DNA from: Pseudogymnoascus verrucosus | Taxonomy: Eukaryota | DNA: 64,000 bases | Reading direction: 5' to 3' (one strand) | NCBI GenBank assembly: GCA_001662655.1 | Contig: KV460249.1 | In this document: positions 14,153-14,442 of the stretch, piece after piece | Position numbering within the stretch: the stretch's first letter is position 1 | Layout: each line of letters opens with the position of its first letter | The notes under the pieces: model-generated | The model's input: only the letters and a program-made list of their open reading frames with translations | The model's database searches: none | Told to the model about the DNA's origin: nothing | Position numbers and translations under genes: made by a program

Positions 14153-14442
14153 ATGAGGATTACTCTCATCAGTTTCATCTCACTTGCAGTTGCTGTTTCA
14201 GCACTACCAACCACCAATGTCAATATAGGAGTTGCTACAGCTAGGTCCCCTCACGGGGAGGGGGCAGACGAATACGGTGCGAAATGGGCCAAGCGTGCTG
14301 AAGCTGGNNNNNNNNNNNNNNNNNNNNNNNNNNNNNNNNNNNNNNNNNNNNNNNNNNNNNNNNNNNNNNNNNNNNNNNNNNNNNNNNNNNNNNNNNNNNN
14401 GCTGAAGCTGGAGCAGACGAATATGGGGCGAAGTGGGCTTAG
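14153..14442 (+). CDS. Secreted Kex2-processed repeat precursor peptide (dikaritin/UstA-like), repeat AEAGADEYGAKWA-KR; spans an assembly gap
   Basis: Signal peptide MRITLISFISLAVAVSA, then ...GEGADEYGAKWAKRAEAG, 93 N, then AEAGADEYGAKWA* read from 14401. It lies among three DUF3328-type genes. Confidence 0.9.
14308..14400. other. Assembly gap inside the precursor repeat array
   Basis: Run of 93 N flanked on both sides by GCTGAAGCTGG. Confidence 0.99.

What the first reader, a model, noticed from the sequence alone, without database searches (positions are those of the whole stretch)
14153..14442. Precursor hidden by an assembly gap; core copies differ only at synonymous sites
The ORF track loses frame across the 93 N, but reading from 14401 gives AEAGADEYGAKWA*. 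The two visible GADEYGAKWA copies (14261-14290 and 14410-14439) differ at 5 third-codon positions (GGG/GGA, TAC/TAT, GGT/GGG, AAA/AAG, GCC/GCT) with no amino-acid change, which suggests selection on the peptide. The last copy ends in a stop where the first has KR, so Kex2/Kex1 processing would give both the same C-terminus. The gap probably hides about two or more collapsed 45-nt units.
Basis: partly seen in the sequence, partly recalled or inferred. Interest (0 to 1): 0.85.

Follow-up and report, generated by a model that had tools for sequence, protein, structure and literature searches.

The report
Gap-hidden fungal cyclic-peptide precursor gene
A small secreted-protein gene in a mould genome carries many tandem copies of one ten-residue peptide. 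It sits among copper-oxidase genes of the type that make fungal cyclic-peptide toxins, so it is probably a new member of a known class that a sequencing gap and wrong gene models have kept out of surveys.

Summary
ATG 14153 opens a signal peptide, a 19-residue leader and GADEYGAKWA-KR-AEA. A 93-N run (14308-14400) breaks the frame, then AEA-GADEYGAKWA-stop follows (14401-14442). The two visible cores differ at 5 third-codon sites, all synonymous; random changes do this 17-44 times in 100,000.

The gap does hide collapsed 45-nt units. Read-derived contigs of three DNA runs break at the same two places and hold a high-depth wrap-around unit. Gap-free proteins with the identical leader carry 5, 6 and 7 cores, and a related species in metagenomes carries 7. 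Across 9 cores, 8 columns vary, all synonymous.

The gene lies in a conserved cluster: Zn2Cys6 regulator, two UstYa/DUF3328 oxidases, a third two-HxxHC membrane protein with no Pfam family, and an ABC transporter. Best reading (0.7): a Kex2-processed multi-core precursor of a dikaritin-like RiPP, cross-linked at its conserved Tyr-x-x-x-Trp. Relatives are few and, where named, all Leotiomycetes. Neither named relative appears in the published KEP survey table I searched.

It is a new member of a known kind. The product, the processing and transcription in this strain are untested.

The parts
14153..14442 (+). Precursor ORF, interrupted by the scaffold gap: 36-residue signal plus leader, then 15-residue units (core GADEYGAKWA, KR, spacer AEA); the last core is followed by the stop
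   Evidence: closed versions P0002, P0115, P0117; orthologues in L002 and L003
14153..14203 (+). Predicted ER signal peptide MRITLISFISLAVAVSA (cleavage after VSA is my inference from the -3/-1 rule)
   Evidence: Hydrophobic core ITLISFISLAVAV, Kyte-Doolittle 2.58. SALPTT is conserved in the relatives aligned (TALPTT and AALPTT in two of them) and is present in P0113 and P0114. SignalP was not available.
14261..14305 (+). First repeat unit: core 14261-14290, KR 14291-14296, spacer AEA 14297-14305
   Evidence: its DNA is identical to the first core of L003
14308..14400 (.). 93-N scaffold gap that stands for collapsed 45-nt units; the length is wrong for the frame
14401..14442 (+). Spacer AEA, last core 14410-14439, stop TAG 14440-14442
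14039..14152 (+). Upstream in-frame ATG stretch (MNPQSPKYKRL...) used as the start by JGI and NCBI models; probably promoter or 5' UTR, not coding
   Evidence: In L003 the same ATG is followed by AAC CCA TAG. The S. lignicola model and all distant relatives start at the signal peptide.
12928..13665 (-). 245-residue membrane protein with one TM helix and two HxxHC motifs (H173-C177, H203-C207); no Pfam family; divergently transcribed from the precursor
11692..12434 (-). UstYa/DUF3328 gene 1, two exons (12434-11916 and 11859-11692), TM helix, HQLHC and HWPHC
   Evidence: Pfam PF11807 E 9.4e-11; exon model by eye from GTAAG and the LRx-C-D-T motif
15573..16652 (+). UstYa/DUF3328 gene 2, four exons, TM helix, HDLHC and HLDHC
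   Evidence: Pfam PF11807 E 1.4e-23; exon order matches the C-terminal part of the S. lignicola model P0003
9302..11433 (+). Zn2Cys6 transcription factor (start codon not placed)
   Evidence: Zn_clus E 4.9e-10 and Fungal_trans_2 E 1.6e-44
17344..22101 (+). ABC transporter (TMD0, two ABC_tran domains, ABC_membrane), several exons

Best explanation
The gene encodes a secreted, Kex2-processed multi-core precursor of a ribosomally made, post-translationally modified peptide (RiPP) of the UstYa/DUF3328 (dikaritin-like) kind. Shown: the ORF; its tandem 15-residue units; purifying selection on the 10-residue core; the hidden units; and the conserved neighbours (two UstYa oxidases, a third two-HxxHC membrane protein, a Zn2Cys6 regulator, an ABC transporter). 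Inferred: the signal peptide takes the protein into the ER. There, or in the Golgi, the membrane-anchored, lumen-facing copper oxidases cross-link side chains inside each core, most likely at the conserved Tyr and/or Trp of Y-[GP]-[AV]-[KT]-W. Kex2 cuts after each KR, and a Kex1-type carboxypeptidase removes the KR, so every unit ends ...KWA like the last one. Unknown peptidases trim the acidic N-terminal spacer. The ABC transporter exports the product and the Zn2Cys6 factor switches the cluster on. Several copies per precursor raise the yield per transcript.
For: The ORF and its units are. Variation is silent-only: 5 of 5 differences between the two visible cores, and 8 of 8 variable columns in 9 cores. 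Against L003 the core is unchanged, while 7 of 36 leader residues and the spacer (AEA to AED) changed. The core is the same in S. lignicola RFU24740.1 and in P0004. More distant relatives keep Y-[GP]-[AV]-[KT]-W just before KR or near the protein's end: GADDYPVKWS, AAIYPVKWI, GALYPVTWI. Two flanking genes pass Pfam's UstYa threshold, with 42.4 and 84.3 bits against a cut-off of 25. The regulator-to-UstYa-2 block, window 9036-16828, is collinear with L003 at 86-90% nucleotide identity. In S. lignicola the UstYa gene lies so close downstream that the public model fuses the two. All three HxxHC proteins have an N-terminal stretch, one TM helix at about residues 43-70 and two HxxHC motifs. That is the architecture shown for the copper- and O2-dependent DUF3328 enzyme CctR (PMC12435403, passages read). 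In the KEP survey, 22% of KEP genes have DUF3328 neighbours and, with three exceptions, pheromone-type KEPs do not (PMC7329392, abstract). A metatranscriptome run holds a relative's copy (about 91% alike) at contig depth 2983, with the repeat unit at 14170.
Against: No product is known and nothing here shows modification or cleavage. No tyrosinase, methyltransferase or peptidase was found among the 26 ORFs scanned, so the cluster fails the original five-gene definition of a dikaritin cluster. The first core has no KR before it, so its N-terminus needs another protease. DUF3328 enzymes also serve non-ribosomal and polyketide pathways (PMC12048977). The RNA evidence is weak. It is a contig of a related organism in one RNA library. 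It also spans the intergenic DNA and, by its own coordinates, the neighbouring gene. No silent control stretch could be laid. Nothing was laid on 14401-15000. One public relative (OBT81419.1, 2 cores) has two residue changes in its first core, GVDEYGEKWA, so the core is not absolutely fixed. The third HxxHC protein is not shown to be a UstYa homologue (hhalign probability 0.3%).
Confidence: 0.7

Rival explanations
1. An unmodified Kex2-processed repeat protein: the released linear peptides act as secreted signals, pheromone-like factors or effectors, and the UstYa neighbours work on something else.
For: The architecture of signal peptide plus KR-delimited identical units is shared with alpha-factor-type pheromones and many KEPs of unknown role. 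78% of surveyed KEP genes have no DUF3328 neighbour (PMC7329392, abstract). Nothing here shows modification.
Against: Two UstYa genes and a third HxxHC gene flank the precursor directly, and the arrangement is kept in L003 and in S. lignicola. With three exceptions, the survey's pheromone-type KEPs lack DUF3328 neighbours. After KR comes AEAG, not the X-Ala/X-Pro dipeptide runs described for STE13-processed pheromones (PMC7329392 passage). The window shows no other obvious substrate gene: no NRPS- or PKS-sized ORF appears.
Confidence: 0.2
2. A secreted repetitive protein that stays intact (a cell-wall or surface protein), with the KR pairs not used as cleavage sites.
For: Repeat number varies from 2 to 7 among close relatives, as in many surface repeat proteins.
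Against: Selection is strongest on the 10 residues just before KR and weaker on the spacer. KR or RR follows the core in all the relatives. The protein is tiny and acidic, with no anchor signal visible in the sequence. The gene sits in a biosynthetic-type cluster.
Confidence: 0.05
3. Not a real gene: a chance ORF or an assembly artefact at a simple repeat.
For: The scaffold is broken here and the annotated frame is lost.
Against: The same ORF is complete in two independent metagenome contigs (L002 and L003, 136 residues) and in three JGI proteins. Variation is silent-only. Relatives with a leader only 37-61% identical keep the architecture.
Confidence: 0.01

Closest known systems
Asperipin-2a cluster of Aspergillus flavus (a dikaritin with a minimal cluster)
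   Same: A KEP precursor with many aromatic core repeats. A DUF3328/UstY oxidase is the only class-defining enzyme. There is no tyrosinase or methyltransferase, and a transporter lies in the cluster. PMC12048977 passages state the single ustY homologue and the lack of tyrosinase or peptidase. PMC7329392 states cyclisation by ether bonds at the Tyr ring.
   Different: Here there are two UstYa genes plus a third HxxHC gene instead of one, no reductase, and a different core with Tyr and Trp four residues apart. The asperipin core FYYTGY and its gene names are recalled, not from a call.
Ustiloxin (ustA/ustYa/ustYb) and phomopsin clusters
   Same: A signal peptide plus repeated cores cut by Kex2, two or more DUF3328 oxidases, and a pathway regulator (PMC7329392 abstract; PMC10540207 passages).
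   Different: Those clusters hold a tyrosinase, a methyltransferase and further tailoring enzymes. None was found here. Their cores (YAIG, YVIPID; recalled) are short and lack Trp.
Epichloecyclins (gigA/gigB/gigC/kexB)
   Same: A multi-core precursor whose repeat number varies between strains, a conserved Tyr and Lys in the core, and a DUF3328 protein needed for cyclisation (PMC10540207 passages). The core here also keeps Tyr and, in most relatives, Lys.
   Different: The epichloecyclin unit is 27 residues with cores such as INFKIPYT. A methyltransferase and a kexin lie in that cluster, and neither is present here.
Alpha-factor-type fungal pheromone precursors (KEPs)
   Same: A signal peptide, KR-delimited identical units, and C-terminal trimming by Kex1 logic.
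   Different: There are no X-Ala/X-Pro spacer dipeptides after KR (for the rule; for the sequence). DUF3328 genes flank this gene, which pheromone KEPs almost never show.
Bacterial cyptides with a YPW motif and plant burpitides (analogy only)
   Same: Short ribosomal cores in which Tyr and Trp side chains are cross-linked. The plant cyclases are binuclear copper enzymes, which the CctR paper compares with DUF3328. For MpoB/YPW I saw only the listing and the start of the abstract (PMC12288599).
   Different: The enzymes are unrelated (P450, BURP domain) and come from other kingdoms. There is no evidence that a Tyr-Trp link is made here.

Membership tests
Kex2-processed repeat protein (KEP; criteria of Umemura 2020, PMC7329392 Methods) | N-terminal ER signal peptide (SignalP) | tested here: inconclusive
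   There is a hydrophobic core (KD 2.58) after M-R, followed by VSA-LP, conserved in all the relatives. SignalP was not available. Public models that start at ATG 14039 bury this signal 38 residues in.
Kex2-processed repeat protein (KEP) | At least 3 tandem repeats of at least 8 residues between dibasic sites, none longer than 100 residues | tested here: met
   Not met by the window as assembled, which shows 2 visible cores. Met by the closed versions with identical leader, which have 5, 6 and 7 cores, and by L002 and L003 with 7 cores. A hidden internal unit is shown directly in runs X1 and X2.
Dikaritin cluster, five-gene definition of Ding et al. as quoted in PMC12048977 | Precursor with N-terminal leader and repeated core/recognition motifs | tested here: met
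Dikaritin cluster, five-gene definition | Tyrosinase in the cluster | tested here: not met
   No tyrosinase domain among the 26 ORFs scanned against Pfam. Only ORFs of about 90 residues or more were scanned, so a gene split into small exons could be missed.
Dikaritin cluster, five-gene definition | Methyltransferase in the cluster | tested here: not met
   None among the 26 ORFs scanned, with the same caveat.
Dikaritin cluster, five-gene definition | Multiple DUF3328 proteins | tested here: met
   Two genes score above Pfam's gathering score for PF11807. A third HxxHC protein is below threshold.
Dikaritin cluster, five-gene definition | Transporter or peptidase | tested here: met
   ABC transporter at 17344-22101; no peptidase.
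Dikaritins, later definition (DUF3328 protein as the class-defining enzyme; Montalban-Lopez 2021 as quoted in PMC12048977) | DUF3328 gene next to a KEP-type precursor | tested here: met
Dikaritins | Product macrocyclised through an aromatic side chain | not testable with these tools
   Needs mass spectrometry or NMR of the product.
UstYa/DUF3328 superfamily (for the 245-residue neighbour) | N-terminal disordered region, one TM helix, lumenal helical domain with HxxHC(x)nHxxHC on paired helices (PMC12435403) | tested here: inconclusive
   For: the TM helix and two HxxHC motifs 30 residues apart, the same spacing as UstYa-1. The motifs lie on helices 170-189 and 201-212 of a model with pLDDT 82.8. 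16 of 43 family members give sub-threshold PF11807 hits, best E 1.2e-4. Atlas lead 0.85. Against: the query itself has no PF11807 hit even at E 10. hhalign against a 4-row UstYa alignment gives probability 0.3%.
Alpha-factor-type pheromone precursor | X-Ala/X-Pro dipeptide runs after the dibasic site; no DUF3328 neighbour | tested here: not met
   After KR comes A-E-A-G, and UstYa genes flank the gene. The rule is from PMC7329392.

The most novel reading that the evidence does not exclude
The cluster makes a kind of fungal macrocycle not yet described. It would be a short peptide cross-linked through the conserved Tyr-x-x-x-Trp pair (a Trp-based or Tyr-Trp link) by three copper HxxHC oxidases. 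One of them belongs to a family with no Pfam model that has at least 104 relatives across Pezizomycotina. That family could then mark many RiPP clusters that current UstYa-based mining does not see.
Probability: 0.2. Interest if true: 0.7.

Novelty: new member of a known kind. Interest (0 to 1): 0.42.

Why it matters
Fungal RiPPs of the UstYa type include potent antimitotic mycotoxins, and few have known products. This is an uncharacterised precursor family with a Tyr and Trp core, and the named members are all Leotiomycetes. The case also shows how such genes escape surveys: the repeat array breaks short-read assemblies, one public model collapses to two cores, others start at a false upstream ATG that buries the signal peptide, and one is fused to the neighbouring oxidase gene. 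The unannotated two-HxxHC neighbour family is a concrete lead for widening genome mining.

Tried and rejected
- Whole genome: none is held for this window, so kex2, kex1 and further copies could not be sought.
- Earlier notes of this scan: nothing relevant.
- L005, a 29% match in an 80-kb metagenome contig, reads as a GC-rich bacterial-type stretch by its ORFs and is a chance hit.
- P0005 and P0007 are long repetitive proteins that matched the signal and leader region by composition only.
- Pfam on the precursors gave only chance sub-threshold or repeat-summed hits such as DUF7511 and Melittin.
- Third HxxHC protein: BLASTP against both UstYa ORFs was not significant, although both HxxHC motifs aligned without gaps. 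hhalign gave probability 0.3%. Foldseek against the PDB found nothing at E <= 0.001. VIA-align wide matched only the TM helix, Z <= 4.5, so the lumenal domain was barely tested.
- Copy number from depth: the repeat-unit to flank depth ratios were 8.4 (X1), 2.8 (X2) and 3.0 (X3). They disagree, and the tool warns that depth is not copy number, so I did not use them.
- Run X17 had no cover on 14401-15000. L003 is only about 74-96% alike there per 50-nt bin, so divergence can explain the lack of cover. It is no evidence either way.
- Only 1 of the 3 RNA-library holders was laid (one search lists X17, X18 and X20).
- Literature: no paper holds 'ADEYGAKW'. None of 'YGAKW', 'YPVKW' or 'YPVTW' occurs in the 3 held supplement files of PMC7329392 or the 2 of PMC6339444. 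A search for DUF3328, tryptophan, cross-link and dikaritin listed 10 of 12 matching papers, and none by title or abstract start concerns a Trp-containing fungal DUF3328 RiPP.

Full report
**1. The observation**

- ATG 14153 opens MRITLISFISLAVAVSALPTTNVNIGVATARSPHGE, then GADEYGAKWA (14261-14290), KR, AEA and GG-.
- A run of exactly 93 N follows at 14308-14400.
- From 14401 the DNA reads AEA-GADEYGAKWA-stop, with the last core at 14410-14439 and TAG at 14440-14442.
- The two cores differ at five codons, always at the third base and never in the residue.
- Read mechanically through the N run, the ORF loses its frame.
- Eleven bases, GCTGAAGCTGG, stand on both edges of the gap. A whole number of 45-nt units therefore needs a gap of 45(N-2)-11 bases for N cores. 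93 is not such a number, so the N run is an estimate and not a measured length.

**2. More than chance**

- Five random substitutions in the 30-nt core were all silent in only 17-44 of 100,000 trials, depending on transition bias.
- With the seven cores of the related locus L003 there are nine cores and eight variable columns. All eight are third positions and all are silent.
- Only the Ala7 codon GCG, which could vary silently, and TGG, which cannot, never vary.
- The chance that all 8 fall among the 9 third positions able to change silently is 1.5e-6.
- The first core of the window is identical in DNA to the first core of L003, and the last cores differ at two bases. The first and last copies are therefore older than the split of the two organisms and have been held to one peptide since.

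**3. What the gap hides**

- A protein search found P0002 (JGI, 159 residues), identical to every visible part of the window's ORF and carrying six cores.
- Its 90% cluster also holds a 5-core form (P0115) and a 7-core form (P0117).
- The same cluster holds a 2-core NCBI protein, OBT81419.1 of Pseudogymnoascus sp. 03VT05, whose first core reads GVDEYGEKWA.
- Four metagenome contigs of a relative about 87-90% alike were fetched. L002 and L003 hold a complete 136-residue ORF with seven cores. L001 and L004 end inside the array.
- Logan contigs of three DNA runs that hold this stretch (some may be the window's own source) all stop at 14307 (14293 in X3) and resume at 14401.
- X1 and X2 each add a 70-nt record of raised depth that runs from 14307 back to 14264 with one A between. 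That is a wrap-around 45-nt unit, one letter different from copy 1. X3 shows the loose end AGCAGACGAATA after 14307.
- So near-identical internal units exist and collapse in short-read assembly. How many this strain has is not determined. The closed relatives suggest 3 to 5 hidden units.
- In L003 the array also has a 90-nt higher-order period.

**4. The true start**

- Public JGI and NCBI models begin at ATG 14039 (MNPQSPKYKRL...).
- In L003 that ATG is followed by AAC CCA TAG.
- The S. lignicola model and all distant relatives start at the signal peptide.
- The start is therefore 14153. With six cores the protein would be 121 residues.

**5. Surroundings**

| Feature | Coordinates | Evidence |
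|---|---|---|
| Zn2Cys6 regulator | 9302-11433 | |
| UstYa/DUF3328 gene 1 | 11692-12434, minus strand | PF11807 E 9.4e-11 |
| 245-residue protein with no Pfam hit | 12928-13665, minus strand | |
| Precursor | 14153-14442 | |
| UstYa gene 2 | 15573-16652 | PF11807 E 1.4e-23 |
| ABC transporter | 17344-22101 | |

- No tyrosinase, methyltransferase or peptidase domain turned up in the 26 ORFs scanned.
- Window 9036-16828 is collinear with L003 at 86-90% identity.
- In Scytalidium lignicola the public model RFU24740.1 runs four cores and then the string RRIWGEVGLGP. That string is the window's last core read in a shifted frame. The model continues into the orthologue of UstYa gene 2. So that species has at least five cores, with the oxidase gene directly downstream.

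**6. The third neighbour**

- The 245-residue protein has 104 relatives at E <= 0.001 across Pezizomycotina, all unnamed and without a Pfam domain.
- An alignment of 43 of them has invariant C88, C90, C102, C116, H173, H176, C177 and H206, and nearly invariant H203 and C207.
- Like the two UstYa proteins, it has one hydrophobic helix near residue 50-70. Its two HxxHC motifs are 30 residues apart, the same spacing as in UstYa gene 1.
- In an AlphaFold model (pLDDT 82.8) the motifs lie on two helices.
- 16 of the 43 members give weak PF11807 hits, best E 1.2e-4. An Atlas neighbour at 0.85 carries UstYa in 28% of its members.
- Against this, the query has no hit even at E 10. A profile comparison with a small UstYa alignment gave probability 0.3%. 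No solved fold matched.
- I call it UstYa-like by architecture and motif. Homology is not shown.

**7. The precursor family**

- An exhaustive single-sequence search of 1.84 billion representatives gave six hits. Four are real.
- A profile search added two more.
- The cores are GADEYGAKWA (the window, L001-L004, S. lignicola, P0004), GADDYPVKWS (P0006, P0008, Hyaloscypha variabilis KAN0108241.1), AAIYPVKWI (P0113) and GALYPVTWI (P0114).
- Common to all: a signal peptide ending in ALPTT (SALPTT in most), an acidic spacer, Y-[GP]-[AV]-[KT]-W plus one residue, and then KR or RR, or the protein's end or a short C-terminal tail.
- The three named organisms are all Leotiomycetes.

**8. Mechanism**

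- DUF3328 enzymes are membrane-anchored, lumen-facing, binuclear-copper, O2-dependent oxidases whose HxxHC(x)nHxxHC motif holds the metal (PMC12435403, passages).
- In ustiloxin, phomopsin and asperipin-2a they close rings through the Tyr side chain (PMC7329392, passage).
- The sequence logic here is therefore:
  1. ER entry.
  2. Oxidative cross-linking within each core, probably at Tyr and/or Trp.
  3. Kex2 cleavage after KR.
  4. Removal of KR, so that all units end like the last one.
  5. N-terminal trimming by peptidases encoded elsewhere.
  6. Export by the ABC transporter.
- Steps 1 to 6 are inferred. Only the genes and the selection pattern are shown.
- For transcription there is one hint. 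A metatranscriptome run holds a relative's copy (53 differences and 2 gaps in 608 bases) at depth 2983, and the repeat unit at 14170. That contig also spans the intergenic DNA. By its own coordinates (record base 786 at window 13700) it should also span the whole 245-residue gene. It is therefore either overlapping divergent transcripts or DNA carried over. It shares 22 of 40 listed variants with L003, so it is yet another lineage.

**9. Comparison with what is known**

- It meets the KEP definition once the gap is closed (for the criteria).
- It meets the later definition of dikaritins, a DUF3328 gene beside a KEP.
- It fails the original five-gene definition for want of a tyrosinase and a methyltransferase.
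- The closest known cluster is the minimal asperipin-2a cluster.
- Neither OBT81419.1 nor RFU24740.1 is in Table S2 of the 2020 KEP survey, as held. The core motifs occur in none of that paper's three held supplement files, nor in the two of the 2019 survey. No paper in the library holds the core string.
- The survey's rules explain the miss. It needs a SignalP signal and at least three repeats. A false upstream start hides the signal, a collapsed model has only two repeats, and the third model is a fusion.
- Supplements are stored text and may be cut, so absence there is not proof.

**10. Verdict**

It is a new member of a known kind and not a new kind. It is of moderate interest for fungal natural-product mining. 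The unannotated HxxHC family is the most open lead.

Noticed in passing
window 12928-13665 (-): A 245-residue single-TM protein with two HxxHC motifs belongs to a family of at least 104 unnamed proteins across Pezizomycotina (Colletotrichum, Metarhizium, Claviceps, Cytospora, Venturia and others). The family has no Pfam model. 16 of 43 members give sub-threshold UstYa hits.
   Followed up: partly
window 14039-14152; proteins P0002, P0115-P0117, P0003: Public gene models are wrong in three ways. JGI and NCBI models start at an upstream ATG that is followed by a stop in the relative L003. The NCBI Pseudogymnoascus model has only two cores. The S. lignicola model reads the last core out of frame and fuses it to the neighbouring UstYa gene.
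   Followed up: yes
protein P0116 (OBT81419.1): The first core of this 2-core relative reads GVDEYGEKWA, two residue changes against an otherwise invariant core. It may be a real variant core or a product of a collapsed assembly.
   Followed up: no
L003 6190-6494: The 7-unit array has a 90-nt higher-order period (copies 2 and 4, and 3 and 5, are identical or nearly so). This points to a recent duplication of a two-unit block. The first and last copies are older than the species split.
   Followed up: partly
proteins P0004 and P0011: A more distant precursor relative and a 73%-identical relative of the 245-residue protein both come from a Logan contig listed as 1842 bases long. They may be the same contig, which would make the pairing conserved in a third lineage.
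   Followed up: no
window 13700-14307 and upstream, run X17: One RNA-library contig (1393 bases, depth 2983) of a relative covers the precursor's 5' half and the intergenic region. By its own coordinates it should also cover the whole divergent 245-residue gene. This could be a shared bidirectional promoter with overlapping transcripts, or DNA carry-over.
   Followed up: partly
window 60480-60613: A second scaffold gap of 134 N.
   Followed up: no
window 22000-34000 and 42000-60000: Long AT-rich stretches (GC 0.34-0.38 against 0.44-0.50 in the gene-bearing parts) with no ORF of 130 residues or more. They look like degraded repeats, possibly RIP-mutated. The RiPP cluster ends against the first of them.
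   Followed up: no
window 3-1667, 2642-3136, 6862-7728, 35048-41082, 38771-39959: Ordinary flanking genes: an F-box/WD40 protein, an ankyrin-repeat protein, a zf-C2H2_2 protein, a PHM7/RSN1-type membrane protein (minus strand, several exons), and a DUF7703 protein.
   Followed up: partly
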